64,000 nt of DNA from Stegostoma tigrinum (taxonomy: Eukaryota): positions 36,934,792-36,998,791 of the forward strand of contig NC_081367.1 of the NCBI RefSeq assembly GCF_030684315.1. The letters run 5' to 3'. Below, one piece after another: positions 3,110-64,000 of this stretch. The translations under genes and the position numbers were made by a program. Positions within the stretch are counted from its first letter, which is position 1. Each line of letters opens with the position of its first letter. Under the pieces are notes generated by a model. It made no database searches. It was not told the DNA's origin and saw nothing but the letters and a program-made list of their open reading frames with translations.

Positions 3110-4000
3110 TGAACTTTGTAATGGGGAATTTCTGACTAAGATACGCTGAAAAGCCACACACATGGATAAAGTCCTGAATTTCAACAGCAACCACCCCAAC
3201 ACTCACAAACAGAGTTGTGTAAAAACACTACTTAAACAAGCCGCAACACAGTAAGCAACCTATAACTATGCCAAAATGTAGAAGAATACCTCTACCAAGT
3301 ATTTAAGGACAACGGATACCTGAACAGCTGGGTCTGTCAATGCCCATCACACAAACAACAACAGGAAGATGCAGTACTGACACATTTGTCATGTTATCGT
3401 ATATCAAGAACATATCCAAACTGACCACAAGACTTCTATGACCATTGGGCATCAGAGTGGCACACAAACCTATGTCAAATCTACACCAACTGCTAACTTG
3501 AGCCAAAGACCCCTTACCCACTATGGACAGAACCAATGTGATATACAAGATTCCATGCAAAGACTGTGACAAACATTACATGCGACAGGAAGGAAACTGG
3601 CCATAAGAATACATCAACACCAACTAGTAACAAAAAGACATGACCAGTACTCACCTGTCTCCATTCACACTCCTAAGGAGAACCACTAGTCTGATTGGGA
3701 CAACATCAGGATCCTCGGACAGGCCAAACAGAGGCACGTATGGGAATTCCTAGCAGCTTGGTTCTCCACTAGGAAGGCCATCAATAAATACATGGAATTA
3801 GACCCTATATATACAACACTGCGAAGAAAAACCAGAAATGAGGCAACCAATTCCAAAGGACCCTATAGTTTAAATACCGGGAGGGAAAACACAACAGCGC
3901 TTCACTGGAGGCTGCACTAATGATGTTACCTAGCAGGGTAACGAAATGTCTGTGAACTAACAAACCAGCTCAGCGAGTGAACCAACCACAGCATCGAGCT
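3110..4000 (+). mobile_element. Penelope-like element 3' part (GIY-YIG endonuclease remnant plus terminal region with hammerhead motif)
   Basis: Decayed translation IRVAHKP...KDPLPTMDRTNVIYKIPCKDCDKHY...RKLAIRIHQHQ...DWDNIRILGQ. The same family occurs at 63595-64000 on the minus strand. Confidence 0.85.
3914..3953 (+). ncRNA. Degenerate minimal type-I hammerhead ribozyme motif in PLE terminus
   Basis: GCA-CTAATGA-T-GTTACC-TAGCAG-GGTAAC-GAAAT-GTC-TGT: perfect 6-bp stem II, 3-bp stem I, two substitutions relative to CTGATGA/GAAAC. Confidence 0.6.
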
Positions 4001-4309
4001 AAAAATCTACTCAAGAACTTTAATCTACTGTTAAAAGGGACAGACACTATTTATGTTCATGGTTATTTTGCTATTGAGAATGATAAACTTGAACAATTAT
4101 TTAGATTTTTTTGTTGCTATGAATGCACAATTTCTATGTTGAAGTGTAGTTCAAATTTCATCTTACTCCAATAACATAATAGTTATACTATCATGTTATG
4201 CATATACCAGAGAAAATGTGTTCTTCTTGAAACAGATGTCTTGAAGTTCACTTTAAATACAAACTATTTAGATGGCTGCAATGTCAAAGAGTTACACACA
4301 CATTTGGAC

Positions 4310-4538
4310 ATAACAAGGTGTAGAGCTGGATGAACACAGCAGGCCAAGCAGCATCAGAGGAGCGGGTCTGGGCTCTTCTTCAGAAATGCCGATGCTGAAA
4401 CTGCCATTCTTAAGAAAAGTGTCCAGACCTGAAATGTCAGCTTTCCTGCTCCTCTGATGCTGCTTGTCCTGCTGTGCTCATCCAGCTCTACACCTTGTTA
4501 TCTCAGATTCTCCAACATTGGCAGTTCCCACTATTTCT
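4310..4538. mobile_element. Short fold-back PLE-end derivative
   Basis: Inverted arms TAACAAGGTGTAGAGCTGGATGAACACAGCAGG.. / ..CCTGCTGTGCTCATCCAGCTCTACACCTTGTTA; GAAATGTC remnant at 4431. Confidence 0.8.
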
Positions 4539-5062
4539 AATAGAATTTTAGCCTTTTACTGAAGGGGGCTCTAAATACAAAGAGGAGGTAATAATTCAGT
4601 TATATAGATCTTTGAACCCTGTCTAGGACACCGCACTTAGCTTTGGGTATTGTTCAGGAAGGAAATATTGGCCTTGAAAGTAATTTGGCACAGATTCATG
4701 AGAATGATATCTTGGCAGACAGTGCTAAGTTATTAGGAGACATTCCATATACCCGTTTTCACAGAGCAGAAATGTGAGGCGTGATCTCTTTGAGGTGATT
4801 AAAACTTTGAATTTGATGGGATAGATTGAAACAATTCTTCCGTCAGCTGGGAAAGTGAAAGTATCATCTAAATGTTTGATCCAAATTTCAAGGGATGATA
4901 AGAAGTATTTTTTCACAAGATATTTGGATTTGTCACCAAAAGGCAAAGGATGTTGAGACACTTGGAGCTTACAAAGTTGAAATTGATACTTATTTTAATT
5001 AATTGGTAGATAATTAACTACAAGGATTATGGAGTGAGTGGTCGGCAGATAAAGTTAAACTA

Positions 5063-5185
5063 TCTGACGAAGGGTCACTGGGCTTGAAATGTTAATCTCT
5101 TCACATATGCTGCCAGACTTGTTGAGTTTCTCCAGCAATTTCTGTGATTGTTTCAGAACTTCAACAATTTCAGTTCTTTATTTTA
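5063..5185 (+). mobile_element. Short PLE-end derivative (second subfamily) starting with a hammerhead-like motif
   Basis: CTGACGA-AGGGTCACTGGGCTT-GAAATGTT followed by ATGCTGCCAGACTTGTTGAGTTTCTCCAGCA; related copies at 39586, 47440 (-), 49131 and 61720. Confidence 0.65.
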
Positions 5186-5749
5186 CTAGAAATAAATTAT
5201 AGGTCAGTTGCGATCTAAATGAATGCTGGCGCGATTTCAATGGTCTATTTTCACCCGCAAAATGAAGGTTAAATTGAGGATACTCTTCTCAAACACTTCT
5301 GCAGTATTATCTTGGGCCTACAACGAATGCCGTAAGACAACATTTCTTCTTGCAAGTAAGACTCAATTTTATTTGACTTCTGGGTAGGACGGACCTCAAC
5401 ATTCACACCACGAACTTTCGTGTATATTTTTCCCCTCCCGAAACAAATTTGTTAGCTGGTTCCATCTGAAAACCACTCTATTGTCCTTCCAAGCCGCTCC
5501 AGTCTATTGGTTATTGATATTTGATTGACGTAGGATGTGGGCGGGATATCTATTTCTATTGGTTGCGATGACAGTCAGCGACGTGTGTCCCCACCCTGTT
5601 CGGCTCTGGATTGGTTGGGATCGGCCATTAGTTGCTCTTTGTTGGCCCAGAGCGGGTTTTCGGTCTGGAGCCGGCGTTGGGAGGGCAGAGGCCTTCGTGG
5701 ATCATAATCATAATCATCAGCGACAGTCTCTCAGCGGCTTGGAGCGGAC

Positions 5750-31446
<25,697 letters not shown>

Positions 31447-31837: not shown

Positions 31838-31843
31838 AATAAA
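31838..31843 (+). terminator. Probable ACTL6A polyadenylation signal
   Basis: First AATAAA after the stop codon at 31446. Confidence 0.65.
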
Positions 31844-37900: not shown

Positions 37901-40900
37901 CCTTTAGAGAATCCTGGACCAACACTCCCAGATCCCTTTGCACTTGTGATTTGCGAATTTTCTCACCATTTAGAAAATAGTCCATGCCTGTATTCTTTTT
38001 TCCAGCAAAACCTCACATTTACTCATATTGAATTTCATCAGCCATTTCCTGGACCACTCTCCTAAACTATCTAAATCTTTCTGCAGCTTCCCCACCTCCT
38101 CAGTACTACCTGCCTGTCCACCTATCTTTGTATCATCGGCAAACTTTGCCAGAATGCCCCCAGTCCCTTCATCCAGATCATTAATATATAAGGTGAACAG
38201 GTGTGGCCCCAACACTGAACCCTGTGGGACACCACTCGTCACCGGTTGCCATTCCGAAAAAGAGCCTTTTATCCCAACTCTCTGCCTTCTGTCAGACAGC
38301 CAATCCTCAATCCAAGCCAGTAGCTCACCTCATCCCTCTGCCTCCGATGTTCTGGGTGAAAATAGCCTCAGCCTATTTGGCATCTCCCTATAGCTCAAAT
38401 CCTCCAACCCTGGCAACATCCTTGTAAGTCTTTTATGAACTTTTTCAAGTTTCACAACATTCTTCCTATAGCAGGGAGAACTGAATGCAGTATTCCAAAG
38501 AAGTGACCTAACCAATGTCCTGTACAGCCACAACAATGACCTCCCAAATTCTCTACTTAATGAATAGACCAATAAAGGCAAGCATACGAAGTGCCTTTCT
38601 CACTATCCTATTTACCTGCAACTCCACCTTCAAGAAACTATGAACCTGCACTCTAAGATCTTTGTTCGCCAACACTCCACAGGACCTTACCCTTAAATGT
38701 ATAAGCCCTGTCCTGATTTGCCTTTCCAAAATGCAGCATCTCACATTTATCTAAATTAAACTTCATCTGCCACTCCTTGGCCCATCTGATCAAGGACAGT
38801 TGTATTCTGAAGTAACATTTGTCATTAAATTTTTTAAAAAGTATATGATAAAGAAAATATCTTTAGACGTGAAGATGATGAAATCTACTAATGGACATAG
38901 AAGGCAGAGTAGACAAAAATAAGGGCACTTAAAGAGGCACCTTGGTCAAAGATAACAGTTGTAGCTGTTTATTAAAGTTCTGACAGATATGAAGAAACTG
39001 AGTAATTCAAAGTAACGGAGTAATGTTTATTGTCTCATTAAAAGGCATGGAGATCAGCTCTCATGATTCCACCATTGGATTGGAAGTTAAGTACAGTTTA
39101 ATAAGTAGATGGATTTAGACAGGCAAGATGTCTGACAATGTTATCAATTATAATGCCATGAATAAGAGACACTGCAAGGACACACCTATCAATTATAACT
39201 AAATAACCAGATATACTGCACTTCACATAGATGTGCTTTGTTTTGAATCAAACATGAAATAAAAACAATCTGCAATAGGAGAACAGCTAAATATTTTAAT
39301 AAAACAATTTGGATGTGTTAAAAAGGATCAATTTAGGATTTTGCAAAAGGCAACTCACCAGATTTTACAGTCGGTTCTCCCCAGTTCTTAGCGTCATCAA
39401 AGAACTCATCCAGCCCTTGACAGGAACCAGAAGTATGCACAGATCTACACTGTGCAGACAGGCTTGATCCCACTCCAAACTTCTGAAATTTGTCCAAGTT
39501 TTTCCTTTAATTACATGAACATTGACAAATTATGGAAGGCCAGCTTCACTTTGCCACACATCTTCAGAACAATGGAATAATCTCTACGTTAACTCTGTTT
39601 TCTCCTCCATAGATGCTGCCAGACCTGCTGAGCTTTTCCAGCAACCTTGTTTTTGTTCCTGATTTACAGCATCTGAAGTTCTTTTGGTTATTATTGAATG
39701 ATCTCTACTTGCCTGGATGAGTACATCTCCTACAACACTCCAGAAGTTTTACACTATCCTGAATGGGAACTATCTTGTTGTATACTACTGCGAGATCAAA
39801 ATCCTGGAACTTGCTTCCCACATAACAATCGGTGTACCCTAGACCTCCAAGGACCATTGCGATTCAAGAAGGTAGCACACCACCATCTTCTCAAGTGAAT
39901 CCCATGAACAAATGAAGAAAAGTTGTTGAAATTTTCCATTTGCTTCACAGGCTATCATTCCAGAATATGAAAGCTCCTAATGGACACATTTCTTGCTGGA
40001 TATTTTCATTTCTTTCTGGATCCTTCTCCATTACAAATTATAAATGCTTACTTTGTTTGATTAGGCAGAAAAAAGGTTTATTTTGAGGTTCTTAAATTCA
40101 CTTTTTTCAGGTCTCATAGGTCAGTTAAGGATGCCTTCTGTAATTATTTAAAACTTTCTCATACTCCTCAAAGAACTTAACCTCTCATCCATGATCTACC
40201 CCATAGTCAAGTCCTGGGACATGGGTATGTCACAACAGAGATGTTATTATACAATGTAATGACATTACAAATGTGAAGTGCAAACCTTGCAATGCATCAA
40301 GATCAAGAGGAATCTGACTAATTGCAGGTCTAAACTGTAGACAATTTATAGTCATGGAGCATTTTTAGCATAAAAAATCCCTTCACAGCTGCCTTCTAAA
40401 GCGCAAATATGTAAAAACAACTGTTTAGTATTCCTGAAATATCAAGAAATCTGAGTATTTATTTGTAGAACATACTCAAACAAAAGAATTACGGAATCTC
40501 TATACCATAAAGACAAGTGACTTAATGCTGTGATAACAAGCGTGGAGCCGGATGAACACAGCAGGTCAAGCAGCATCTCAGGAGCACAAAAGCGACGTTC
40601 GGGCCTAGACCCTTCATCAGAAAAGGGGGATGGGGAGACGATTCTGAAATAAAGAGAGAGAGAGGGGGAGGCGGACTGAAGATGGATACAGGAGAAGATA
40701 GGTGGAGAAGACAGTATAGGTGGGGAGGTAGGGAGGGGATAGGTCAGTCTGGAGAGGATGGACAGGTCAAGGGGGCGGGATGAGGTTAGTAGGTAGGAAA
40801 TGGAGTTGTGGCTTGAGGTGGGAAGAGGGGATAGGTGAGAGGAAGAACAGGTTAGGGAGGTGGGGATGAGCTGGCTGGTTTTGAGAGGCAGCGGAGGGAG

Positions 40901-43900
40901 GAGAGATTTTGAAGCTGGTGAAATCCACATTGATACCATTGGGCTGCAGGGTTCCCAAGTGGAATATGAGTTGCTGTTTCTGCAACCTACGTGTGGCATC
41001 ATTATGGTACTGCTGGAAGCACAGGATGGACATGTCTAAGGAATGGGCCGAATGTTTCTGTGTGTGAGATTAAGAGTCTCTACAATGTGTTTGACAATTT
41101 CTCTGGCTGTTGTGATTGTTAACTTCACTTGGGTTTTACAGCATGTGTATGTCTCTTGCACATTGTTACCAGTGTTGGTTGTTGGCATGTTCGTCTTCTA
41201 CACCTTCATTTTCCAAGCATATCTTTATTTGTGTATTCAGTGCACAATGGGAATTCTGTATAGTTCCCTAAGGTGGCTTGTTTCTCTTCAATGTTGTACC
41301 ATTATGTATTGTGACTGTGGGAAATAGGCAGCGTGCACACTTACACTGCACCTGTGGATAACCAGATTCTTTGAGTAGGCTTCAACTATCTGTCCAACAC
41401 ACATATCAGGCAGTTCCACAGTGGTGACCTGTACCTGTTTACGCCAAAATAGCCCATATTTGAAAGACACAAAAAGGCCAACAAGGGTTAGAATAATTGA
41501 ATTAAAACACAATGGTACCTTTAAATAAGACTACTTCAAGGTCAGCAAAACAGCCTTACCACCAACTACCCAAGTTAAAGGAATGCCTAAGAGCAATCAT
41601 TCCAGCCTCATTAATGAAAGAATGATTGCGCCAGTAAATGAATAACACCAAGTGCAGGTCTCAGCCCATGAGGTAGCCAAGACTAACTCTCTAAACAGCT
41701 GCAAAGGCAACAGCTAAAGTTACTTTGTAGTAAGTAGTTGCTTCTTTGAAGCTACCTGCAATACTAGATAGACTCTAAAGGTAGGTTTCAACATATAACC
41801 AAAGTATAATACACGCATTAGGGAAAAAGTATTTAAACCTAGATGTGAAAAGTTAATTAACCTTGGCATAAACACCTTTATCTTATGCTCTGAGCAAGAT
41901 AGATTGTTCACAACCCATTCATTACAACATGCTAAGAGTAGAAGTAGCTGTACAACTTTACATTCAATAACTAACTTTATAACAGAAATTAACCATGTCA
42001 GATCACGGGAAGCTGAGCTGTCCATAGGAATGCCCATTATTTGATGTCCCGCGGAATTGTGTGTATGGATCAATATGGAAGGACGGCGACTATGCTGTAT
42101 TTGATTATTGTAATCGATTGTGTATAAAATGCTGTATTTTTCACTGTAAAAATGAGAATGTGTCATTGATCTCCCTTCCAATTCAGGGAAAATTCTCTGG
42201 CCCTCTCCCTGCCTTAACTGATTTGTGCTTGAATAAACATCTTCCACTTGCCTGAATCCTGCCTGCCTCCTGAGTTTTTGTCTCTGGTCGGAGGGGTTCA
42301 CTCCTACAGTTATGTATTGTCTTCTACTCCTTGGTGGGCAGGTTGTGGTTAGGCAGGGTTGTCTTTGAAGAATAATGTCTTCCAGTTACAGTGAGCATAC
42401 ATCTAAAAGTATCACTCTTACTGGGAAACACTATGATACATAAATAGTGTGAAAATCATGCATGTCATCACCATGTTGTTTAATGATCATTGCTTTAATG
42501 GTGCAAACAATGCAATCAGCAAGACCATCCAATGTGGGATAATGTAGTAAAGCTGATGTAAGGTTTATGACCCATTTGGCACATGTATCCCTAAAAAGTA
42601 CTGTTGCTCATAGTCAGGGATGAATTCTTGAGGTCTACAAAATAGACTGAGTATTGTACGCCATAGATCTGCTGCAGATGCACTTGAAGTGTTCTTATAT
42701 TCACATTTGGGAATTTGGAAAAATAGTGATTCAGAGAAAATCAATACCACGTATGGTGAATAAATCTGTTGTGATTTTAGACCATGGGATCGATGGAATC
42801 TTGCAAGGGTATTTTTGCATTGATGTGATTGGTGACTCAGGCATGCTTCTCACATCTATTCTTCGGTCGTTGTTGATAACTGACCAATACCTTATAACCT
42901 GTATCAGCTGTTTTGGTCCCCTATACCTGTTAATTACAACGTGCTAAGAGTAGAAGCAGCTCTTAACACAGCTGTAACAATAAATGCAACAAAACAGCTT
43001 GGGACACATTACTTTTATCTCTTTTAAGATTATGCCTCAAATTATATCGCTCATCTCTGTACAGTCAGAAGCATCGGAGAGAGATTGGCATTTCTTGTAA
43101 TGTATGAGGCCTCCCCCTCCTATAGCCCTTTTAGTTGTGCACCATTAGCCATTTCTTCTTGTTGATTCTTTGGAACAGTCTTTGTTAAAAGCAGTGGAAG
43201 CAGAGTACTTGAATATTTTTCAGGCTGAGAGATAGACAGATTCTTGATAAGCAACAGGGCAAAACGCCTGACTCTCAGAAGTAGGCAAGTATGTGGAGTA
43301 ATCAGAGATAATGGGAACTGCAGATGCTGGAGATTCCAAGATAATAAAATGTGAGGCTGGATGAACACAGCAGGCCAAGCAGCATCTCAGGAGCACAAAA
43401 GCTTATCAGAGATAATGGGAACTGCAGATGCTGGAGATTCCAAGATAATAAAATGTGAGGCTGGATGGTGTGCTCCTGAGATGCTGCTTGGCCTGCTGTG
43501 TTCATCCAGCCTCACATTTTATTATGTGGAGTAATCAGATCAGCCACGATTTAACTGAATGGTGAATCTCCAAAAGGTCCACAGCGTCACAGGTGCCATT
43601 TATTAGCCTGTTTGATTCACTCTGTGTGATATCAAGAAACGGTTGAAGGCACTAGATCCTGTAAAAGTTGAGAGCCCTGACATAATATTGCCAATAGTAC
43701 TAAAGACACGCTCCAGAATGTGCCACACCCCTATTCCAGCTGTTCCAGTATAGCTACAACACTGGCATATGCCTGACAATGTTAAAAATTGCCTGGTTAT
43801 GTCCTGTACACAAAACAAAACAAGATAAATACAATGCAGGCAATAACCAACCCATACAGTCTACTCTCAATTATCAGTAAAGTAATGGAAGATATCATTA

Positions 43901-46700: not shown

Positions 46701-49700
46701 CCGGCTGTTAGTTCAGCTTGGTCGTCTGTGTCCGGAAACCGATTGACCTTGTGAAGTGCATCAGGATACAGCAAAAACTTACATTTATGTAGCGAACTTG
46801 CTCAAGGGGTGTTATAAGGCCAGTTTTGACGTTCAGCCCCTAGGTGGGTGCTGTGTCAGTACAGGTGTTAAGAGCTTGATCAGAGTTTGAGATAACAAGG
46901 TGTAGAGCTGGATGAACACAGTAGGCCAAGCAGCATCATAGGATCAGGAAGGCTGATGTTTCGGATCTAGACCCTCTTGATTAGAGTTTGCTTCATTAGT
47001 ATCTCACAAGGGGAAAAGGAGCGATGTACGAAAATGGAGGTAAGACGGATTTTTTTTTTAGGACCTAGCCTCTAAAAGTACGGCCATTTATGTAGAGCGA
47101 ATAACATTCGGAATACTCAAGAGATAGAATTAGAGGAATAAAGAAGGGTCTCGGGTCGGAAGAATTTGCAACTGAAGTCGTGGATGAATTTAAAATTAAG
47201 ATGCAACTGGAAGTTGCCCTAAGCCTATGAATGTTGGTTCGCTACATAAATGTAAGTTTTTGTTGCATCCTGATGCACTTCATAAGGTCAATCGGTTCCC
47301 TGACACAGACGACCAACTGGTGATGGTTGAATGGGACCTGGAGTGAGTTGAGACAGAAGCAGAAGAGTTTTTTGACTTAGTGGAAATTCACAGAGTAATA
47401 TGTGTGAGGCTAACCTGACAAGTAACAGTCAACATAATCAGAAATTGCTGGAGAAACTCAGCAGGTCTGGCAGCATCAATGGAGAGAGAAATGAAGTCAC
47501 TGTTTAAAATCCAGTGACCCTTCTTCAGAACTGAACAGTCAAGGCTTGTAAGAAGACCTTGTAACAGTCTCTACCACAAGAAACAAAGTATTTGACAATC
47601 TAATAGGACTAAAGGCAGACAAGTTGCCAGGCCTGCATCCAAGGATTTTATAAGATGTACCTTCAGACATAGGGGAGGCATTGGTCAAAATATTCCAGAA
47701 CATTCTGGATTCTGTGAGGGCTCCAATAGATTGGAAAATAATTGTGATGCTCCTGTTTAAAAGGAAAAGAGAGTATAAGCTAGTTAGCCTAATACTGGTC
47801 ATTGGAAAAATGCTAGAATCCACTGTTAAGGGAGAAATAGCTGAACACAGTCGAGCAACAAATCTGATATTATCTTATGAATGATTAAAATAAAATGAAT
47901 TGATAATCAAAGCTCTAGAAATAAATATTTTTGGACAAAACTCAGTGAAAATTTAAACTTAACTGTAATAGTGCAGTTACCACCCAAATACATCCTGTGG
48001 AACAAAATAAAGAGAGTATTTAATACATGCTGAATGTGCAAAGGGAACAACTCACCTTTATTAAAAAAAGTACATTTCTAAAGGATTTCTTACGTAAATA
48101 TTTTTAATCATCTATTCGGATGAGTTCTGCTGCACCTCTGGACCAGGTGGAATGTGAACCCAGAACACCGTTCTTTATTTTTAGAAAAATCAACCTGTTC
48201 ACACATTATCTCACAGTGTGGAGCAGGTCACATTTGAACCCAGGTAACCCTAGCTCAGAGGTAGGACATCACCAATGTGCCCCAAGGGCCCTTTATTCTT
48301 GTATATACAGAGCCGTTACATAGCACTTTGTGATGAGGGAGAACTTTGGTTTTTGCATGTCCCTTAAAATCATTTCTGTTTTTGTAAGAGCTTATGTCTG
48401 AGATTCTTTTCCTTTTTACCTATTCTGACTTTGTGTAAAGCTGCCTTCCTGTTTCTTCAGTAAGGTGGCAGGGTGGCTCAGTAGTTAGCACTCCTATCCC
48501 AAGACCCAGGGGACCCAGGTTTGATTCCACCCTCAGGCGACTGTTTGTGTGGTGTTTGCACATTCTCCTTGTGTCTGCATGGGTTTCCTCCTACAGTCTC
48601 AAAATGTACAGGATAGGTAGATTGGCGAGCTAAATTGCCCATAGTGTCCAGGGATGTGTAGGTTAGGTGGATTAGCTATGTGGAATGCAGGGTCATAGGA
48701 TAGGGATGTGGGTCTGGCAAGGATGCTGTTTGGAGGGTCAGTGTGTTTTGATAGGCTGATTGGCCTCCTTCCGCACCACAGTGAATCTTTGTTCTATGTT
48801 TTGTGCATCTGTGATGTTTGGAACAGTACGATTCCCTCTACGGTCAGTCTCCTGAGTTCTGCCTGTGCGTATGTCTCCGGAATGCTTCTAATACAAGATG
48901 AAAGTCAGACTGATTTTAACTTGTGTAGCAGACATTGTGGAAGTGTATTTTTCTTTCCTGTTAACTATTAATTCACAAGTTAAGGGAACCTGTTTGGAAA
49001 ATTGGACAGGAACCCACAGTGCAGGAATTTTATCCACATTTATATTTATCCCTTTTGTTTTGGTGTTATGCACCTGCATTTATTTTGTGTTTATTCCTGT
49101 TTTTAAATTAGGTTAATACACATTAAGGCAGTTCAGAGGAAGGGTCACTGGACCCGAAACATTATCTCTAATTTTTTCTTCACAGATGCTGCCAGACCTG
49201 CTGAGCTTTTCCAGCAACTTCTGCTTTTGTTACACATTATAGCAGTTCTGGTATGTTAGCCTAATTCCCACTGTTTTGTCATCTTATCGAAAGAAAATAG
49301 GTGTCTGTACTGGGGTACACTACAAATGGAAAATCTGTGTAATTATGGTAAATCTGCCATGGAAACTTGAGTGGCGATAGCATCCTTAACATGAGCCTTG
49401 TTTTGAATCATTGGAGTATGAACAGGAATCATATGAGAAAATTTGGCCTAGTGTTTCCTTTATAGCTCTGAAAGTTGTTTTCATTGAAAGTCCACGCAAT
49501 AGGTCGTCGTAATGTCAAAATGCTTTAATGCTAAATGTGTAATTCTTAAATGATATAGTTTCTGTTGTTTTAAACAAAAATACATATTTTGCATTCAGCC
49601 TGTCTTCCAAATCATACAACAGTCTGTATTTGGATAACAATTTTGATGATATCCCACAGTTACATGTGAAAATAAAGTTTCCATTGGAAAACAAATCTGA

Positions 49701-52700
49701 TAAAACTTAAATAGCAATACTGCTGAGTGAATTTACGATATATTTAAAGTTCTATTTTTGTAAGCACTAAATGTTAATTTACACAATTCATATTTACAGC
49801 ACCAACTTATCAGAGTGCTTCTCACACAATGGAATGTCCCAAGATGCTTAATGAGCATTATAAGTCATGTGAGATATTGAGACAGATTTTCCAGGCATTG
49901 GCGATCTTGCACCTTCTGTTTTAGGAAAGAAGGGAGATCTGTATTTATGATATGAGATTCTGGGTTTGGCAGGGGTAGGGCGTTGGTGGTGTGGGGTTGG
50001 GCAGGTCATGGTATGGGTTGAGGTGTCAGATCCCTGGGTGCCTGATCCTGCAGAGTGGTGAGTGGGTGGATGTCCAGTCTCTGTTGGTATTCATCTAGAG
50101 TTGGATGATGTATTTAATACTTAAACTTTCCCGAAGTAACTATTCATTAGAACCATCGAAAGTCTCCAAGTTTTAAGGCATAGAAGATTTGTTCAAAGGA
50201 AAATGCAATTTTCTGGGCAATTCCTTAGGAGTTTGCTAAGTTGGAGATTCTTCAAAGTTCCCTGTATAGCTCATGTCAGTGCTGGAATAATGACTGTCTG
50301 GCCAGCAGAAATGCTACTCCAGTGGGTCTGTTGACCAGAAATTTTAATGGAGGAAAGAAAGGTAGGGTGGTGTTGAGGAGTACTCCAGAGTGTGGGGCTG
50401 AGGCCCTTGAAGGATTGGCCACTAATAGTAGAGTAATTAAAATTGGACATGTGCATCTCAGGATCAGATGTGATGCCAAGGTAATGAACAAACTGGCTTA
50501 ACATTGACTTGCTGCCAAAGAGAAATGTAGCCAGCAGTAGAGGAATTGAGTTTGAAGTGAACCCTGATTAACGATGACTTAAGCCTTCCCAATATTTAAT
50601 TTGAACAAATTTCTGCTTATCCAGTATTGAATGTCAGATGAGCACTCTGATGATTTATCAACAATGGAGTCATCCAGAAATGCTGTGGTGTTGTAGCTCC
50701 TAAGTTAGAGAAATAGAGATATTTCAGAGGGTTGAAGAGCTGGGTAGAATCACAGATATAGAGAAGCGTGAATTCATACAGGAATTCGAAAGTAACTTGA
50801 ATTTTAAAATCCAGATGTGCCATTTTTGGGAGCCAACGTTGTGAGCACAGGAATGATAGTGGAACAGGACTTGCTGCAAGTTAGCATGGCACGCAGCCAA
50901 GTTTTGGATGATTTAAAGCTATGGAATATAGGAAACAAACTAGGATGTACTTGAATGTTTGAGCATAGAAAAAGTGATGGCAGGAATTTGAGGTTTAGGC
51001 AGCAGAAGACCTGAGTCCTACATAGGGTGTAATGTAGTGGTCTTCTTGGTGGGGCATTAAAATGGGGTTGGAAGTTCATCTCAGGATCAGATACGATACC
51101 ACAGCTATGAACAAACTGGCTTAAAATCAACTTGCTGCCATGAGAGAAATGTTGTCAGTGGTTGAGGAATTGAGTTTGAAGCAGACCCCGATAATGATGA
51201 CTTAAGCCTTCCCAATATTTAATTTGAACAAATTTCTGCTTATCCAATATTGAATGTCAGATGTCTGATAATTTATCAACAATGGAGTCATCCAGAAATG
51301 ATGTTGTAGCTAATATACAATTATTTTCTGTTACCTGCAAATGTTGTGTTGGTTTGTTTTATTCTAGTTGCAGTCCGTCATGGTAGTCACGGAAAACAGA
51401 TGTTTGTTATCAAATCCAGTCAATATTATGATACTCGCTTTCTGCGTCTCTTGGTATGTACCAAAGTTGCATCTGAATTCAGGCCAATTGGTCTACAAGC
51501 ATGGAAAAGATAATTCTGCCTGAGGTTGAATGTGTAAAGTATATAATTCAAATATAAAGCCATTTTTTAGCAATCAGCATTGATAAATAATAACATCTCA
51601 ATTCCAATTATCTATTCGATTGGAATGTGTGAATGTACTGAAGGTCCAATTATCTTTGTACAAAGAGGGACAAATGTGTTGAACATATTTGTTGTCTTTG
51701 ATGTAAAGCTTTAGAAATATTTAATGAAAAGGCATTAATGACTTTTCTACCTTTAAGAAGTAGAGTATATACTTTATTTTTAGTGCTATATAATCTAAAA
51801 CCAAATATATATCATTATTCATTTTGTTGTTTACTTACCAAGTCTGCGTGACACTGACGACTGCCCATTATCTGCCAATGCCTTAAACAGAGTTATAATT
51901 TGATACTGCTAGTCATTTACAGCCCATCAAGTGGGCATCTGAGAGGCAGGTGCAATATTTAGACTTGATTTTCTTCATTTGGAAGAACACTGTCACAAGG
52001 CTGTGTGGAATGAAAGTAAGCCTTCATTTTAAAAGCACAGCATGATAGGAGTGAGTATTTTCTCTTTTTACTAAGTCTGCAAAAATCGCTGTCCCTTGAT
52101 CTGACTTTCAACTCAACATCATTTGCATAGTAACTATCTCCAAATCAACTGCTGTGTAAATCAAACACCTCATGGAATTTGGTAGCCTACTCACCCCCAG
52201 TTTCTACTTAAAGGAATGGAATTGAGACAAATATGATGGCTTGTTGCATCAATTCCAATTCCTGAAATCACCTCTTGAATTCCTCTGCCAACATTTTTAG
52301 GTATGCACAAACATTTATGGATCGAACCAATTATCTTTATCTCTGATTTTTATTTTCGCTAGTATTTTAAAGATTCAAGGTGTTGCAATGTTTTGTTCTT
52401 TAAGTGATAGGACCATAGGCCCAGTTTCTGTTTGAATACATTGACAGCACTTACCTGCTAAATTTCTGTCCTTTTCCTGCAGGTAACAGTTCAGTTTACT
52501 CAGTTTTGACATTTCTGTAAGGAGCCCAAAGTCGAGCAACCACTATTTCATCTGTCAATTCACTGCATTGCTTTGTTCCTTGATTTCAGGCATCAGATCA
52601 AAAAATCTTTTCAGGACCTTCCTCTGACTTAATCATCTCATATTAGCATGGAGCATTAGTTTGCCATGGGGCAGTGCTCAAATTGAGTTTACAATATTAA

Positions 52701-55700
52701 CAACTTCCATTATGTGAGAGAAAACCCTAATTTATTTGTCCAAAGTATGCTGTTCAAGCAAAAACTGCCCTTGAATTTACTATGCATTGTTGTGGTGTCA
52801 TTCCAAATTCCACTCTTCACTTATTGATATGCTTCGGTTGCATTTAAGGCAAATGCTCTTATCTTTTATAGTTGTGAACTAAATTCATTTTTCCATACTG
52901 TGTGGAAGTTGTAAATTTGCAATATCTTTTTAGATGGTTCAACTTCATTCATCATATGTTCCTGGTTAACAAGGATGAGTTTTTTAGCGAGGATAAAAAG
53001 CAACATAACACTAAATACTAACCTACAACTGAGAGCACACCTGGGGTTAGAGATGTGCACAACACATGATAAATAACAGTACAAAAGGCTTTTTTTAAAA
53101 CCAGGTTTTACAATTGGTTAAACATGAACATAAATTCTGCTCCTGCAACCAATGAGTTTTAAATGAAGGTCTGAAAGCTGCTTTCTTCTGCACTTGCTTC
53201 ACCTCGTGGCCTCTGACACCAGGCTGTCACTGGGCAAGCTGCAGGAAGGTCACTAGATCCACACTGCTGGAATATCTGGAATGTTGTCGGCTGCTCCCAA
53301 GTGTGGAGGCACAGAAGTCATTTCTGTGGTCTTGATTTGTATCCAAGATTCTGGGTTGGCTTCTTATGTCACAGACACTAAATGTGAGACATGGCAACAT
53401 TTCCCATAATTTTTCTTTGTCGTGTGCAAATATGAGCTCAGTGCATGGCAATGGCTTCCAAAGGTGGAAGTCATGCAGTAGCATGATGGTTGACATGTAC
53501 ACATCACTTAAAAGGAACGTAGGTGGTGTTTGAAGGACTGAGATTGACTGTCCAACATTATGTGATTGACCAATTGACTGAGTGTTGGATGGCAGTACAG
53601 ACTTCAGCAGTGCAGGACAGAACCCTAAGTCCTAAACTTCATGGAGCCTAACACGTGAGGACTGATCAAGTAAATATTATATTAATAAATGCATGTTAAA
53701 CCATTGCATCTATCTTATTCTACTTGAGTTCTTACTTAGGAGCTTGTTTGTGTTAATAGAAATATTCACAAGTTCAAACCCTCACATCATTGTGTGTATG
53801 CAGCTTTAAACATACAATGACAGTTGCACTGATACATTTTCGATTCTTTCTGCAGACATTCTACACTTTATTAACTGGAATACCAGTGGCTGTTTTCATC
53901 ACTCTTGTGAATATTTTTATCGGTAAGTATATTACAGTGGTAATTATAAATGATGCAAAAAGATTATTTTTAAGTGACTGGTGTAAGTCAATTGACATTG
54001 AAAATAAAATGATCTAAAATTAAAATGATCAAAAATTACTGCATTTTTGTTTAAAACCTATCTAGGTCATTAGTATCCTTTAGAGAAGGATATAGGCTGT
54101 CCTTGTCTATCTGGTGTGATGCTAGACTCAATGCAGTATAACTGCTGGTTAGTTGCCCTCTGAAATAGTCAGAAATCTGATCAGCTGTATCAAATTTCTG
54201 AGAGTGTCTAAAAAGAACAAAACTGGATGAACCACCTGACATTGACCAAGGAATCAGGCACACCCAGCCGAGTCAATCCTGCAAAGTGGTCATTACTGAT
54301 ACCTGGAGACTTTTGTGAGAGCTGTCTAGCAGAGTATCCATCTGGGAACCAAATCAAGGTTCCTTCACTGCTGTTGAATAAAACTCCCTCCTTAACAGTT
54401 CTGTGGGTGTTTCTGAATCTCAGAAGTCGTAATTCAAGGTGTACATCACTAACTTTGAGGAGAATTAGCTGTAGACAATAAATGCTGACTTTGACAGCAA
54501 CGCACACAACACTTAAAACAAAGAAAGAGATGCGTTCTGTAAATCAGAGCTCAGCATTCAGGTGATCAGTTTCCTATTATATTTATTTTGTAGAAGATTG
54601 AATTTGCCTTCAATAAGTCTGGTTAGCACTGCTGCCTCACAGTGCCAGGGCCCTGGGTTCGATTCCACCTTAGGTGACTGTTTGTGTGGAGTTTGCATAT
54701 CCTCCCTGTGTCTACGTGGGTTTCCTCCAGGTGCTCTGGTTTCCTCCCACAGTCTGAAGATATGCAGGCTAGGTGGAATGGCCATGCTAAATTGCCCACA
54801 GTGACCACGGATGAGTAGATTAGGTGGGTTATAGGGGGATGGGTCTGGGTGGGATGCTCTGAGGTTTGGTGTGGACTGGTTGGGCTGAAGGGCCTGTTCC
54901 AAACTGTAGGGATTCAATGATAGTATTCAACTAAAATATAAATATTTTTAACTAGCAATTTAAAACATAATGATTACCAGTTCACCAATATGTTCAGCAA
55001 TGTATAACCAAAGAGATAGGAGGCATTAGTGGTGATCTTTCAGGAATCACGAGTCAGGGAGAGGACTGGAAAATTGCTCAGGTAATTCCTCCTACTTAAG
55101 AAGGGAAGAAAGCAAAAGCTGGGAAATTATGGGCTAATTACCCAACCTCAATCATTAATAAGATTTTGGAGTCCATTGTGAAGGATGAGATTTCTGAACG
55201 CTCGGAAGTGCATGGTAAAATATGGTGAAGTCAGCATGGTTTCATCAAGAGGAGGTCATTCGTGACAAATCTGTTAGAATTCTTTGAGGAGGTAACTAGG
55301 AGGTAACTAGCAGGTTAGACCAAGGAGAGCCAATGGATGGTATCTGCCCGGGTTTCCAGAAGGCCTTTGACAAGTTGCCACACAGGAGGCTACTAAGTAA
55401 GATAAGGGCCCATTGTGTTAGAGGCAAGTATTAGCATGGATGGAAGATTGGCTATCTGGCAGAAATCAGAGACTAGAGTTGAGAGTCTTTTCTGATGAAG
55501 GGTCTAGGCCCGAAACATCACTTTTTGTGCTCCCAAGATGCTGCTAGGCCTGTTATGTTCATCCAGCCCCACACTTTGTTATCTTGGATTCTCCAGCATC
55601 TGCAGTTCCCATTATCTCTGACTAGAGTTAAGAGTCTTTCTCAGGATGGAAGCTGGTGACTAGTGGTGTTCCACAAGGGTTAGTGTTGGGACCATAACTT

Positions 55701-58700
55701 TTTACTTTATACAGGTAGTTCAACTGTAACTCATGTTTCGTTAATGCAAATTGGGTGTAATGTGAGTGACGAATAGTAGATGCTGTTTGGATAATGCAAA
55801 TTTTCTGTTGTACAGATTTCCCTATAACGTGATTTTCTGTGGCAGTTTTCTATAGTGCGAGGTCATGCAAGAACGCAACTATTGTGTCATAGGAGAACTA
55901 TCTGTACATTAATGATCTAGGTGAAGGAACTGAGGGCATTCTGGTTAAGTTTGCCGATGAAACAAAGATAGGTAGAGGGACAGGTAATCTTGAGGAGGCA
56001 GGGAGACTGGCAAAGAATGGCAGATGGAATACAATGTGGGAACGTATGAGGTTGTGCTCTTTGGTAGGAGTAATAGAGGCATGGACTATTTTCTAAATGG
56101 GGAGAAACATTAAGAAATCTGAAGTGAAAAGGGTCGTGGGAGTCCTAGTCCAGGTTTCTGTTAAGATAAGGTTGAGTCGGTAGTTAAGAAGGCCAACACA
56201 ATGTCAGCATTTGTTTTGAGAGGACCATAATATAAAAGCAGGGATATACTTCTGATGCTTGATAAAGCTCTGGTCTACATTTAGAGTATTGTGTACAGTT
56301 TTGAACCCGATATCTCAAGAAGGATGTATTGGCCCTGAACGGGTCCAGAGGACGTTCACAAGAATGATCCCAGGAATGAAAAGCTTAACATATGAGGAAC
56401 GTTTGAGGACTCTGGGTGTATACTTGATGGAATTTAGAAGGATTGGGTGGGGGAATCTAATTAAAAAGTGCACAATACTGATCAGCTTGACAGAGTGGAT
56501 GTTGGGAAGATGTTTTCATTAGTAGGAGAGACTAGGACTCACGGGCACAGCCTTAGAGTTAAGGGAGGACCCTTAAGAATGGAAATAAGGAGAAACTTCT
56601 TCAGCCAGAGAGTGATGAGTCTATGGAATTCATTGCCACAGAAGGCTGTGGAAGCCAGGTCATTAGTATATTTAAGATGGAGATACAGGTTCATGATTGT
56701 TAAGGGGAGAGGGTGGGAGAATGGGTTTGAGAAACATATCAGCCATTCTTGAATGGCAGAACAGACCTGATGGGCCTAATTTCTGCTCCTCTGTCTTGTG
56801 GAGATAGATAAACAGGAAGTTGGAAGAACATAGCAGGCCAGGCAGCATCTGGAGGAAAGGAGCAGTTAACGTTTCATACATTACCCTTCTCCAGGACTGC
56901 CTGAAATGTTGACTGCACCTTGGATTCCAGCATCTATGTTTTTATTTGTCTCTTATGTAGTTAGATATTCACATTTTCGTTCCCTATTGTGGCAATCTTA
57001 ATTTTCAAATATTATGACTCTTGGAAGAGAATAAACAGCTTTTCTAAAGATGTATCTCTGTTGTTGCATTTCTCAGGTGAGGCTGAGCTTGCAGAGATTC
57101 CTGAAGGTTATGTCCCAGAGCACTGGGAATACTACAAGGTACAGTAAGCTTCTTAGTAATCATTATTAAACTAATGCACTGGGTGTCAACAATGAATTGC
57201 AATATTTCCTCAGCACCATTTAGATACACATTAATTAATTGATAGTTTCAACTGGGATTCCAATTGAAGACATACTCTTTGTTAACTTGTGTATTGAGAA
57301 CTAGCGACTGCTTGCATCTGAAGTGAAATACCATGTGGGGAGATTAAGTAACATGGTGGGGGAAATATTTAAACTGGTATGGCTTGGAGATAGGAATCTG
57401 CACTTGCAGCTATAGAAGAAGAACCAAATTAATGAGCTTTCGATGTAGAAATAAATCGTCTTAACTGAAATAAATAGATGAAAAGTTTTATTGGAGAAGA
57501 AAGGCAAATAAAGTCTTTGAGCTACTGAGAGCTGAAAACACTGCATGGACAGGCTAAGAAATACCAGGAAGTTAAAGGGAAGAAATAGATAAAGATCAAT
57601 TTTCATAATAAGTATGCCATTCAGGCATGACTATTTGTGATTTGAAAACAAAATTGGGAATTGCACGGAATCACAGAAGTATTATGATGCAAAACGAGGC
57701 CACTTCAGTTGATTATGCCTGCACCAGCTCATTAAATGACATCTGTACCTAGTACCAACCTCCTGCTTTTTCTTCATACTCTTTCACATTATATTTATCC
57801 AAGTGATCATTCAGTGTTCTCTTGAATGTCTCAATTGAACCTGAACTCCTCCACACCCTAACTTTGTGTGTATCCTTACTTCATCTGTATTTCTTTGGCT
57901 GATCATTTGAAATTAATACCCTCTTGTTCTTGTTCCTTTGTATAAGCAGGATCATTTTTTCACTACCTGTTCTATTCAGCTCACTCATGATTTTGAAAAC
58001 TTCTACCAGATCTCCTCTTAGTCTTCTTCGCTTCAGAACCATCCCAACTTCTTCCATCAATCCTTCTAACAGAAGTTTCTCACCCCTCAAGCCATTCTTG
58101 TAGACCTCTTCTGTACTGTTTCCAATGCAATCACATCCTTCCTGTAATGTGGCACCCATAAATGTGGCATAGAGATATGTAACTGCTTCCACAATCAACT
58201 ATAAACCACAACAACTACTGAAAGTGCAGCCTGTTTTTCTTACCAAAATGCATCATGTCACATTGAAACTCATATGGCACCAATGTGCTCACTCCACTAA
58301 CTTGTCTGTCTCTTTCTGGAGTTATACACAATCTTCCTCACAGTTTATGATTCTTCCAAGTTTTTTATCATCTGCAGACTTTCATATTGCCCTCTGCATG
58401 CCAAGATCACAGGTGGCACTGTGACTCAGTGGTTAGCACTGCTTCATCACAGCATCAGGGGCCCAGGTTCGATTCTAGTCTCAGATGACTCTTTTGTGGA
58501 TTTCACACGTTCTCCCTGTGTCTGCATGAGTTTTCGCCGGGTGCTCCAGTTTACTCCACAGTCCAAAGATGTACGAGTTAGGTGGATTGGCTGTGCTAAA
58601 TTGCCCTGTAGAGTCCATGGATTGTAGATTAGGTAGATCAGCCATGGTTATAGGAGTATGATGGGGGTTTAGATCTGGGTGAAATGTTCAGAGGGTTGAT

Positions 58701-60244: not shown

Positions 60245-60306
60245 GAAGACAAAGATTGCTTGGGTGTGCTAATTATTAATACGTAGGAAGTGAAAACACG
60301 TTGTTT

Positions 60307-60312
60307 AATAAA
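60307..60312 (+). terminator. Probable NDUFB5 polyadenylation signal
   Basis: AATAAA 62 nt after the stop codon, followed by T-rich sequence. Confidence 0.75.
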
Positions 60313-61781
60313 CTATATCATGTCAATGTTCTTTTGGCCAAGTTTCTTATTTTAGTTGAAATATTCCTTTTTTAATCAAACTTATCAACTTTTTAAAGTT
60401 GCACATTTCAGAGACCATTTAGTCATTGATATTCCCTCCTGCAGTTGTTGATGTAGTGAGTTTCTTGTTTTAGTCAGGTCATGAGTGACATATTTAATGA
60501 TGAAGTGTTTCTCTGCAATGACAGGATAATGGAAAATGCTTTCTAAGATCTGCTTTTTTCCCCACTTACTCTCAGTGATTATTTTAAGCATTTCCTGTCA
60601 TCTTTATAGGGCATAAGTGAGGGTGCTGTGAGCATTTCTGGAATCCACATTATAAAGATAATTGGTTCTGAAGATGATACAAAAAAAAATTACTGAAGTT
60701 GTACCAAAACTGGGAAGTTAATCTAATAGGAAATATTTAGCACGCTGGGCTGTTTTGAAAAGAGAAATCCAGGGATGACTTGACAGAGGTCAACGTCATG
60801 AAAAGGTTTCATAGGATAGATGTAGTGAAGATGTTTCCACTTATGGACAAAATGAGAGTTTGGAATCAAATATTAAATAGCCACTAAAACACATAATAAT
60901 GAATTCAGGGAGTGAATAAATATGGAAGTTGCTCTCACATGGAGGAATTCAAGCCATTTGTAAAGGTGTATTTAAGGTGAGGCTAGATAATCACACAAGG
61001 ATAATAGGTGAAGAAGGATGCAAAGAGGCTTGTATGTAGTATGAACCTACTGGAACAAATGGAAAATTTCTATGCTGTAAGTTTTAAGGCAGCTGTATAA
61101 ACACCTGGAATAAAGAATAGACTTTAATAAAAATTATCATGAAATTGTTGGGTAGTTGTAAAATCTCCAAGGATTGTACTGATGTAATTTTAATAGGGAA
61201 ATTTCTACATCTTTGTTTAGTATCTGTGACTCCACTTCCATGCTGAGTTTCATCAGCATTTTTCTGTTTTCATTTTGGATTTCCAGTATTGGCAGTTTTT
61301 TTTTGCTTTTATTTAAATGTTGGTCTTGCTACTTAAATCCACAAAAAGATTTTTCTTTTAAATTGAGGAGGAACCTAAAGATATGGAAGAAAATTTATAA
61401 AATGAGTTATGAAAAGTTGTGTGCTTAGTGCTGGTATGTGCTGAATTCCTGAGTTATTATGGTAGTTGTATTGCACCTGGGGTCAATCAGTACGTGACAG
61501 ATTTTGGAGAAGAAATTTACCTGGGTTTGCAATCATGATCGTCATTCACTCAGCCCTATTTTCTGCGGACATGATCAAACTCGGCAATGTCAAATTTCAC
61601 TAACTTATTTAATGTCTCCTTATACTGTATAGTCCCCTTTCTCATTTTGTTTTCTTTTACCTTACACACCCTCATTTCACTTCCTTAAAACCTATTATAA
61701 TTTTAACATTTCCAAATTCTGATGATCTGAAAAGCTAGGCCTGTGTGTCTCCAAACAGATGCTGCCAGATCTGCTGAGTAC

Positions 61782-62650
61782 ATGGAACATAGAACTGTAC
61801 GGCACAGGAATGGACTAAGCAGCTCAAGATGATGTGTTGAACATGACACAAATTAAACTAATCCCTTCTGCCTGCCCTTGGTCCATATCCCTCCATTCCT
61901 TATATATTCATGTATTTATCTAAATGTCCCTTAAACACCCCAATCTTATTTACCTCCACCACCACCAGCCCTGGTAATGCGTTCCAGACTCCTACCATTC
62001 TGTTTTTTTAAAATAAAAACTTGCCCTTCACATTTCCTTTGAACATTACTCCTCTCATCTTAAATGCATGCCTCCTAGTTTCAGACGTTTCATCTCTGGG
62101 GGAAGAAGATTCTGACCTTTAACTCTACCAATGCATCTCTTAATTTTATAGACTTCTATCAAGTCTCCTGTCAGCTTCTTCCCCTCTAGAGAAAACAACC
62201 CGAGTTTTTCAAGCCTCTCCTTGTAACTCATGCCCTCCAATCTGGGTGGCATCCTGGCAAACTCTTCTGCACCCTCTCTAAAGCCTCCACATCCTTCCTG
62301 TAATGTGGTGACCAGAATTGAACACAATACTCTTAGGTGTGGTCTAACCAAAGTTTCATTAAGCTGCAACATGACATCCTGACTCTTGTGTAGAGCTAAA
62401 TGAACACAGCAGGCCAAGCAGCATCTGAGGAGCTGGAAAGCTGACGTTTTGCGTTGAGACGTCAGCTTTCCTGCTCCTCTGCTGCTTGGCGTGCTGTGTT
62501 CATCCAGCTCTACACCATGTTATCTCAGATTCTCCAGCATCAGCAGTTCTGACTATCCTGACTCTTGTGCTCACTTCCCTGACCAATAAAGGCAAGTATG
62601 CTGTATGCCTTCTTTTCTACCCTGTGTGCTTGATTGGCCACTTTCATGGA
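61782..62650 (-). mobile_element. CR1-type LINE 3' fragment with nested fold-back element
   Basis: LVRPHL..SYKERLEKLGLFSLE..GDLIEVYKI. Confidence 0.8.
62391..62554. mobile_element. Short fold-back PLE-end derivative with perfect 15-bp TSD
   Basis: ATCCTGACTCTTGTG at 62376-62390 and 62555-62569; inverted arms meet at AAAGCTGACGT..ACGTCAGCTTT. Confidence 0.88.
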
Positions 62651-63594
62651 TGTTTGACCACAAGCCACTTGATCTGTATTGAAAAAGTGCAATGAGAAAA
62701 CACACCCTGCTCCAGCCACACTGCCTATTCAGTAAATAAATGTGTTGTAAGTGCAAAGTCTTTTTAAACTGAGTAATATGTCAGCCTTGGCAGCTAATGC
62801 AGGAATCAAACATTAGATCAGCATATGAAAACAAGGAACAAAGGCAAGAAATGGTTGATTTTTAAAAAAAAACTACACTATAGTAAGTTTTCACTTGAAG
62901 TTGTATCCCTCAAAATAGTGACTTCAAGTGAAAGCTCTGAATGCTGAAGATGGCCTAAATGAAAGTCGGAACCAGACATCTTTGGAAAATGATAGAAGGT
63001 GGCAATCGTCTCAAAATATGGTGCTGCTGGGAGTAGCAGCTCCTGCTCCCAGATGCAATCTTCTCTGCAACAGGACAACTAGCACTTCCAGCATTTTCTG
63101 TTATTTGAATTCCAGAATTCATAGCGTTTTACTTTTGAATGTCAAACTAAATTTGAGTCTATTGCTAGTAGTGGAATTTTACTAACTTGTTTCAATTTAC
63201 TAATTGATTAGGATTAAATATGAAAAAATCAATTTTTCAAACAATGGAATAATTGCATAAATCTCTTATCTCCAATTTCTAAAGTCTTAAAATTATTTTT
63301 ACTTGGATATTATCAAAGCTGTATTTTTACTTGATCAATTTTTGTTGTTTGACTTCCAATATCCATTAAATTTCCAATTAAATTGGAATTAATTTTTATG
63401 TGCCTTTGGACATTTGTTTCAAAAGATTCAATATAATGGGGACCAGAATGTCCATCAGTGTGAACATTTGGTACTTTTCCAGTAGACAACTATGTTTTAC
63501 TGCCCCCTGCTGTAATAGTCACTTCATTACAAATACATTACAAATATTTTTATTCCTTGACAAATTTCCAACTGGCCAGAAATATAAATATAAT

Positions 63595-64000
63595 GTTGTG
63601 GTTGGTTTGCTTGCTGAGCTGGTTCATTAGTTCATAGATGTTTCATTACCCTGCTGAGCGACATCAGTGCAGCCTTTGATTTAGCGCTGTTGTGTTTTCC
63701 TGCCTGGTATTTAAACTCTGCTGTCCATTGAGCTGGGTTACCTCACTTCTGGTTTTCCTTTTGCAGTGGAGTATATACAGGGTCTAGCTTTGTGTTTGTT
63801 GATGGCCTTCTTGGTGGAGAACCAGACCTCTAGGAATTCTTGTGCTTGTCTCTATTTGGCCTGTCCTGGGATCCTGGTGTTGTCCCAATCAAACTGGTGG
63901 TTTTCCTTATCTGTGTGGATGGAGATGAGTGAGTGTTGGTCATGTCTTTTTGTTGCCAGTTGGTGTTCATGTACTGTTGTAGCTAATTTTCTTCCTGTGT
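63595..64000 (-). mobile_element. Penelope-like element 3' part (same family as 3110-4000), truncated by the window end
   Basis: Reverse complement aligns with 3585-3990 (TGRKLA..HEHQLATKRHDQHSLISIHTDKENHQFDWDNTRI); hammerhead remnant CTGATG..GGGTAATGAAACATC. Confidence 0.85.

What the first reader, a model, noticed from the sequence alone, without database searches (positions are those of the whole stretch)
3914..63672. Dispersed hammerhead-ribozyme motifs in two or three Penelope-like families and their short mobile derivatives
Seen: the pattern CTGANGA-hairpin-GAAACGT[C/T] recurs with three different stem II sequences: GTTACC/GGTAAC (3917; 63640 -), GGGTC-TA-GGCCC (28108; 28103 -; 40620 -; 55492) and GGGTC-ACTG-GACCC (5064; 47530 -; 49134). 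The core is kept while the stem changes and still pairs. Established: PLE termini carry minimal type-I hammerheads whose palindromic ACGU stem III works through dimerisation. Inference: more than a dozen ~90-230 bp elements in 64 kb are the ribozyme-bearing end only, each inserted separately, so this may be an abundant non-autonomous ribozyme-linked family in this lineage. I cannot tell whether it is already catalogued.
Basis: partly seen in the sequence, partly recalled or inferred. Interest (0 to 1): 0.8.

Follow-up and report, generated by a model that had tools for sequence, protein, structure and literature searches.

The report
Penelope retroelement stubs carrying hammerhead ribozymes
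The short ribozyme-bearing repeats are real but are stubby end-copies of three protein-coding Penelope-like jumping genes in a likely shark genome, not a separate mobile family; their ends suggest they are likely copied from the very start of the element's RNA, often twice into one cut site, and possibly sometimes from ribozyme-cut RNA.

Summary
All nine cited motifs are present, but each is decayed; none keeps the full core. Three families are confirmed genome-wide (exact cores: 92,176; 762; 8,045). All three sit at the 3' end of Penelope-like (PLE) RT/GIY-YIG reading frames, and family A has long-ORF copies.

The short copies are not one non-autonomous family: lengths run continuously to full size and all 17 short-pair junctions differ. 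In 1.12 Mb of fixed-position samples, about half of family A ends form head-to-head pairs with target duplications; 24 of 27 young pairs have exactly one 'tail'. 5' ends pile up just before the ribozyme, about 30 nt below a TATA-like box, often after an extra G, which points to the transcript start. A smaller class starts at the predicted cut site (566 junctions against 21-202 at control palindromes); this did not repeat in an older subfamily or in family C.

Ribozyme-bearing truncated PLEs are published, and this scan reported the same kind in other genomes. New here: coupled two-ended priming statistics and possible fossil traces of cleavage in vivo.

The parts
1..1332 (-). Family A PLE internal fragment (RT region), 83% to the long-ORF copy L031; runs left out of the window to its own ribozyme end
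   Evidence: L047
3120..3990 (+). Family C (Penelope/Poseidon-type) 3' fragment: GIY-YIG remnant, TATA-like element, decayed core at 3917-3950
4310..4548 (.). Older family A head-to-head pair (short minus arm, tailed plus arm)
5063..5185 (+). Family B short copy starting at the core; the only window site passing the relaxed descriptor
8141..8349 (.). Older family A head-to-head pair (+13..+91 minus; +8..+127 plus)
15491..15590 (-). Older family A single short copy, 12-bp target duplication
27971..28200 (.). Young family A head-to-head pair: tailed minus arm -4..+129, tail-less plus arm 0..+92; both arms share one core substitution; about 14-bp target duplication
39586..39695 (+). Family B short tailed copy starting at about +25, 13-bp target duplication
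40532..41047 (-). Family A 3' fragment of about 500 bp: end of the GIY-YIG frame plus core at 40620
43301..43525 (.). Young family A composite: minus arm starting exactly at the predicted cut site (+28..+129), second minus piece (+68..+129), plus arm (+34..+90), target duplication
46888..46975 (-). Older family A single tail-less copy, 15-bp target duplication
47431..47534 (-). Family B short copy, core decayed
49129..49231 (+). Family B short tail-less copy starting at -5, about 18-bp target duplication
55491..55621 (+). Family A single tailed copy -1..+129, 20-bp target duplication
62388..62563 (.). Older family A head-to-head pair joined near +20, 15-bp target duplication; source of the miRNA-like Rfam matches
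63590..64000 (-). Family C 3' fragment running out of the window; decayed core at 63667-63637

Best explanation
These are short end-copies of three protein-coding Penelope-like retroelements, most likely made when the element's reverse transcriptase starts near the 5' end of the element's own RNA and runs off it, often from both ends of one staggered DNA cut. Positions count from the C of CUGANGA = 0. Shown: family identity; target duplications; two 3' ends (about +92 and +129); head-to-head pairs with one tail; 5' ends piled at -8..+11. Inferred: a promoter in the upstream terminal repeat starts the RNA at about -4, just before the ribozyme (0.65). The enzyme cuts both strands and both 3' ends prime on the same RNA junction, one at +92 and one at +129; the two cDNAs are then joined at their far ends by short microhomology (0.7). 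Priming at the first junction gives 90-135 nt promoterless copies; priming at a downstream junction of a tandem transcript gives long ones. A minority in young family A would be copied from RNA already cut by the ribozyme (0.45).
For: L031 has a 1,200-codon RT+GIY-YIG frame between direct repeats carrying the family A core, plus an inverted truncated copy. B and C cores also end PLE frames. One tail per pair: 24 of 27 young and 48 of 52 all A pairs; B 9 of 10 sampled and 11 of 12 targeted. Shared flank string of >=9 nt in 23 of 27 young pairs. Arm lengths are coupled: 17 short-short, 9 long-long, 1 mixed (p=2e-6). The tail-less arm reaches further 5' in 14 of 25 pairs, which a cDNA fold-back cannot give. 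5' ends: 41 of 87 young A arms at -8..+11 and 2 at -86..-9; B 29 of 48 at -9..+3. TATA-like boxes at -34 (A) and -33 (B, initiator-like TCAGT at -6). Base before a -4 end: G 68, A 8; before a -5 end: G 30, A 41 (hand counts, first 100 rows, C-preceded rows left out). A single extra G appears at such joints in contigs of a public run. Cut-site class: 3,494 ends at +28 against 699 and 872 at neighbours; 566 junctions centred there against 202, 42 and 21 at other 4-nt palindromes. Two RT start sites and cutting and extension of both strands were shown in vitro for a lizard PLE (PMC11167929).
Against: No RNA data on the start or the cut. The extra G can come from the partner arm or target: only about 8 of 21 G cases among 25 true ends are clearly untemplated. 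Family C shows only a weak pile-up (7 of 37 targeted arms at -17..-8). The D. virilis promoter is reported as internal and TATA-less (PMC2377424). The cut-site excess is not seen in the older A subfamily (20 against about 7 with a pattern 10 nt longer) or in C (12 against 5 and 10). About 57 of the first 100 +28 rows involve the self-complementary AGCT, which favours joining there. Family A's stem I has only 2 pairs, and free folding does not give the hammerhead shape. Greater likeness of arms within a pair (3.8% against 6.0%) is confounded with shared age. Frangieh et al. found no RNA reads at the cut site and cleavage was not needed for insertion.
Confidence: 0.7

Rival explanations
1. A self-propagating non-autonomous family (SINE- or retrozyme-like master of 90-230 bp) mobilised in trans.
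For: A sharp common 5' boundary; some head-to-tail short tandems exist; PLE-derived tandem retrozymes are reported in vertebrates including one cartilaginous fish (10.64898/2026.07.22.740005).
Against: 17 of 17 short-pair junctions differ; lengths continue up to full size; the cut-site palindromes carry variants of several subfamilies; short copies lack the TATA-like element; no tandem array of them in the window.
Confidence: 0.08
2. Same origin, but the 5' pile-ups mark pauses of the reverse transcriptase at RNA structure or bound protein, plus microhomology capture in the self-complementary ribozyme, rather than RNA ends.
For: Junctions often overlap at stem II or other short palindromes; the cut-site class needs only the AGCT palindrome; no RNA evidence.
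Against: A pause should fall 3' of the fold, yet most ends lie 5' of it; singles stop at the same place; TATA-like spacing and G bias fit a capped start; the neighbouring ACGT palindrome is used 13-fold less.
Confidence: 0.15
3. Head-to-head pairs arise by self-priming on an antisense template or by cDNA fold-back, with the endonuclease trimming the tail (proposed in PMC3846280 and PMC8557442).
For: Junction palindromes exist; one tail per insertion is expected from asymmetric resolution.
Against: Fold-back of the tailed cDNA needs the tailed arm to be the longer one; it is shorter in 14 of 25 pairs. An antisense-RNA variant is not excluded by sequence alone.
Confidence: 0.07

Closest known systems
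Endonuclease-positive Penelope-like elements (Neptune/Nematis-type for A and B, Penelope/Poseidon-type for C)
   Same: Single RT + C-terminal GIY-YIG frame, pseudo-LTRs, adjacent inverted 5'-truncated copy, 30-40 bp tail at one end, target duplication (PMC3846280, PMC8557442).
   Different: Very high load: family A covers 7.4% of 1.12 Mb, about 600,000 ends by extrapolation; about two thirds of young ends are 135 nt or shorter.
Minimal type-I hammerheads of metazoan PLEs (Cervera and de la Pena 2014, PMC4209133)
   Same: CUGANGA, extra base before stem II, G-C closing pair, GAAACGUH with palindromic stem III; mostly solo motifs from truncated PLEs, some as near pairs on opposite strands.
   Different: 92,176 exact cores against about 9,000 motifs reported for Xenopus; family A stem I only 2 bp; possible genomic trace of cleavage.
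Poseidon element of Anolis carolinensis, PAc (PMC11167929)
   Same: Two start sites bounding the tail; both strands cut and extended; mostly uncut RNA used.
   Different: That text (parts 1-2 of 4 read) does not link this to head-to-head pairs or short run-off copies, and found no reads at the cut site.
Non-LTR retrozymes (10.64898/2026.07.22.740005)
   Same: Non-coding, hammerhead-bearing, PLE-derived.
   Different: Retrozymes are head-to-tail tandem units; these are solo or head-to-head, each with its own junction.

Membership tests
EN+ Penelope-like element | One frame with RT followed by GIY-YIG endonuclease | tested here: met
   L031: RVT_1 E=1.6e-5 and GIY-YIG E=0.005, both below Pfam cut-offs, with YIDD and VVY..YIGET motifs visible. 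B and C only as broken remnants.
EN+ Penelope-like element | Direct pseudo-LTRs and adjacent inverted truncated copy | tested here: met
   L031 and others
EN+ Penelope-like element | 30-40 bp tail at one end and target duplication | tested here: met
   37-nt tail; 48 of 52 A pairs have one; flank duplication >=9 nt in 23 of 27 young pairs. Tail of C seen by eye only.
Neptune/Nematis versus Penelope/Poseidon clade | [quoted passage not shown] | tested here: inconclusive
   C-x4-C-x2-C linker present in A and B, absent in C; no reference set for a tree
Minimal type-I hammerhead ribozyme | Conserved core, stem II of 4 bp or more, palindromic stem III | tested here: met
   At family level; not in the 9 cited window copies, which are decayed
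Minimal type-I hammerhead ribozyme | Stem I of 4-5 bp | tested here: inconclusive
   A 2 bp (31 of 32 commonest hits), B 3-4 bp in most listed hits, C 2-3 bp; a 2-bp helix I is reported for D. virilis (PMC4209133)
Minimal type-I hammerhead ribozyme | Self-cleavage after GUC/GUU, as a dimer or with protein | not testable with these tools
   Indirect only: excess of ends at +28 in young A, not in older A or C
Non-LTR retrozyme | Head-to-tail tandem units, each with a hammerhead | tested here: not met
   Window copies are solo or head-to-head; short tandems elsewhere not counted
Non-autonomous SINE-like family | Fixed master structure shared by copies, own promoter | tested here: not met
   17 of 17 junctions distinct; TATA-like element lies outside short copies

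The most novel reading that the evidence does not exclude
The hundreds of thousands of stubs record the PLE reaction in vivo: one transposase dimer primes both ends of a staggered cut on one RNA at two fixed sites, which explains the long-unexplained inverted, one-tailed structure; and a second class of copies starting at the ribozyme cut site is genomic evidence that an animal PLE hammerhead cleaves its RNA in the germ line.
Probability: 0.35. Interest if true: 0.72.

Novelty: new member of a known kind. Interest (0 to 1): 0.45.

Why it matters
How PLEs make their inverted, one-tailed insertions, and whether their weak ribozymes cut in vivo, are stated as open in the papers read (PMC8557442, PMC4209133, PMC11167929). 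This genome offers a very large natural data set that separates the models and names exact positions to test (-4 start, +28 cut, +92 and +129 priming). Practically, the pairs form perfect hairpins in introns that mimic miRNA precursors and non-autonomous elements, so they should be annotated as truncated PLE copies.

Tried and rejected
Rfam: no hammerhead match; miRNA-like hits at 62388 are the pair's hairpin, all below gathering score. Expression: no RNA holder listed; only contigs could be laid, which show neither starts nor ends. No empty-site joint for the 27971 pair was among the rows shown (524 rows not shown). Cut-site test in family C and older A: no clear excess. Family B not tested, since a palindrome spans its cut site. 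Free folding of natural copies gives stem II but not the active shape, so it was not used as support. The MAFFT alignment put family C out of register, so no formal covariation count was made. The family C reference ended at +72, so its tail was not scored. Lunse et al. 2017 was not held; known only from its citation in PMC6765202. Repbase and Dfam were not available, so whether these families are catalogued is unknown.
Full report
SETTING. The window is G000:C17:36,934,792-36,998,791 in a 3.2-Gb assembly. An exon near 16300 matches Actin-like protein 6A (E=5e-18), so at least the nearby elements are probably intronic; the gene's span was not mapped. A shark-like host is my inference from recalled repeat types and genome size; no call names it. 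Positions count from the C of CUGANGA = 0; in family A the predicted cut leaves a 5' end at +28.

OBSERVATION. The nine motifs are at the stated places with the stated stems, but all are decayed. A strict scan finds 1 hit and a relaxed descriptor passes 1 site. Rfam finds no hammerhead among 10 matches. The families are real: 61 descriptor hits in 112 fixed-position 10-kb samples against 0-1 in each of five shuffles, and exact cores number 92,176 (A), 762 (B) and 8,045 (C), with controls 0. A and B share stem II and differ in its loop; C has an unrelated stem. The three stems are thus two designs, not a covarying series.

WHAT THEY BELONG TO. The RT fragment at 1-1332 has 73,826 first-look candidates, 150 scored. 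One region, L031, holds a 1,200-codon frame with RT and GIY-YIG matches between two 167-bp direct repeats bearing the family A core, preceded by an inverted truncated copy. The 40620 motif ends a 500-bp piece of this family. B cores follow frames 40-62% identical in protein to A in several of 25 loci. C cores follow a GIY-YIG frame without the cysteine linker seen in A and B; PMC8557442 gives that linker as the mark of Neptune and Nematis.

ANATOMY. In 1.12 Mb, family A covers 7.4% and leaves 212 3' ends, 104 of them in 52 head-to-head pairs. 3' ends fall at about +92 or +129. Exactly one arm has the tail in 24 of 27 young pairs (one had both, one neither, one unclear) and in 48 of 52 overall. 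B shows the same in 9 of 10 sampled and 11 of 12 targeted pairs. A shared flank string of 9 nt or more brackets 23 of 27 young pairs; 15 of 33 young unpaired arms have one of 10 or more. Arm lengths are coupled: 17 short-short, 9 long-long, 1 mixed. All 17 short junctions differ, and sizes run on to kilobases, so no fixed master is being copied.

THE 5' ENDS. Of 87 young A arms, 26 start at -87 or beyond, 2 at -86..-9, 41 at -8..+11, none at +12..+25, 4 at +26..+31 and 14 further 3'. In B, 29 of 48 start at -9..+3; C shows only a weak cluster. TATA-like boxes lie at -34 (A), -33 (B, in one of two loci printed) and -46 (C), about 30 nt above a pyrimidine- or TCA-type start (the motif labels are recalled). 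Among the first 100 rows, leaving out rows preceded by C, the base before a -4 end is G 68, A 8; before -3, G 33, A 12; before -5, G 30, A 41 (hand counts). In 30 inspected loci, 5 were point mutants of long copies; 21 of the other 25 had G, about 8 of them not explained by target or partner. Contigs of a public run show a lone G at joints into -4, -2 and +2 in 5 of the 12 rows shown. A copied cap is the simplest reading, but it is inferred.

THE CUT SITE. Ends at +28 number 3,494 against 699 (+29) and 872 (+27). Much of this is junctions centred on the palindrome AGCT that begins at +28: 566 loci, against 202 at +15, 42 at +23 (CpG decay allowed) and 21 at +55. They recur in several sequence variants, and one arm at 43301-43403 in the window starts exactly there. 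Against this, the older A subfamily gives 20 against about 7 with unequal pattern lengths, and C gives 12 against 5 and 10. Many junctions also lie at +29..+54, which fits trimming from +28 but also simple early stops. I put cleavage in vivo at 0.45.

MECHANISM. For a lizard PLE, both strands are cut and extended, reverse transcription starts at two internal sites that bound the tail, and uncut RNA is the main template (PMC11167929). Applied here: a promoter in the upstream repeat starts RNA just before the ribozyme; both DNA ends prime on one repeat-ORF junction, one at each site; the cDNAs run to the RNA's end or stop early and are joined. This gives pairs with one tail, coupled lengths and a target duplication; singles arise when one end primes. 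A cDNA fold-back needs the tailed arm to be the longer, but it is shorter in 14 of 25 pairs, longer in 8 and level in 3. Self-priming on antisense RNA (PMC3846280) is not excluded. The D. virilis promoter is reported TATA-less (PMC2377424), while a TATA plus initiator pair is noted in a rotifer repeat (PMC3846280).

WHAT IS KNOWN. Solo and opposite-strand minimal hammerheads from truncated PLEs are described (PMC4209133); inverted copies and one-sided tails too (PMC3846280, PMC8557442). Seven searches gave no paper on shark PLE ribozymes, two-ended priming in PLEs or cut-site copies; most subscription papers, Repbase and Dfam were out of reach. Five earlier notes of this scan report the same kind in other genomes, three of them with ends or folds at the ribozyme edge; none was returned for the cap, TATA and cut-site words together. 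Read: PMC4209133 and PMC11167929, parts 1-2 of 4; 10.64898/2026.07.22.740005, parts 1-2 of 5 and passages (supplement closed; it may list cartilaginous-fish families); passages of PMC6155905, PMC3846280, PMC8557442, PMC6765202, PMC2377424. No supplements were seen.

VERDICT. Real and abundant, a new member of a known kind; the non-autonomous family reading fails. The value lies in the end statistics, which make two open questions about PLEs testable. Interest 0.45.

Noticed in passing
window 17646-21150: 3.5-kb purine-poor tandem array, period 24, about 151 copies at 96% match, close to an ACTL6A-like exon; the other strand is G-rich. Could be a real minisatellite or an assembly expansion.
   Followed up: no
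window about 16310-16430: Exon of an Actin-like protein 6A gene on the plus strand; other exons not mapped.
   Followed up: partly
window 56806-56945 and 61720-61790: Older ribozyme-type ends related to families A and B, the first apparently a head-to-head pair of a fourth variant.
   Followed up: partly
window 1975-2168, 6876-7084, 48482-48717, 54620-54831, 58430-58604: Dispersed repeat with a tRNA-like head, probably a SINE (label recalled).
   Followed up: no
window 37470-38329, 55905-56584, 62055-62519: Fragments of another non-LTR retrotransposon; RVT_1 match at 37970-38329.
   Followed up: no
window 50451-51307: Local direct duplication with a spacing of about 620 bp.
   Followed up: no
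L044 (G000:C38:769000-778999): Head-to-tail array of at least three 2.6-kb internally deleted family A units, 98-100% alike; the best candidate seen for a tandem non-autonomous derivative.
   Followed up: no
L140, L298, L299, L038: Copies whose 5' end at -2, -6 or +28 is joined to the 5' part of the element's own ORF, suggesting template jumps, circular RNA or insertion into older copies.
   Followed up: no
L031 about 3770-3980: The family A frame holds a variable 21-27 bp tandem repeat before the RT domain.
   Followed up: no
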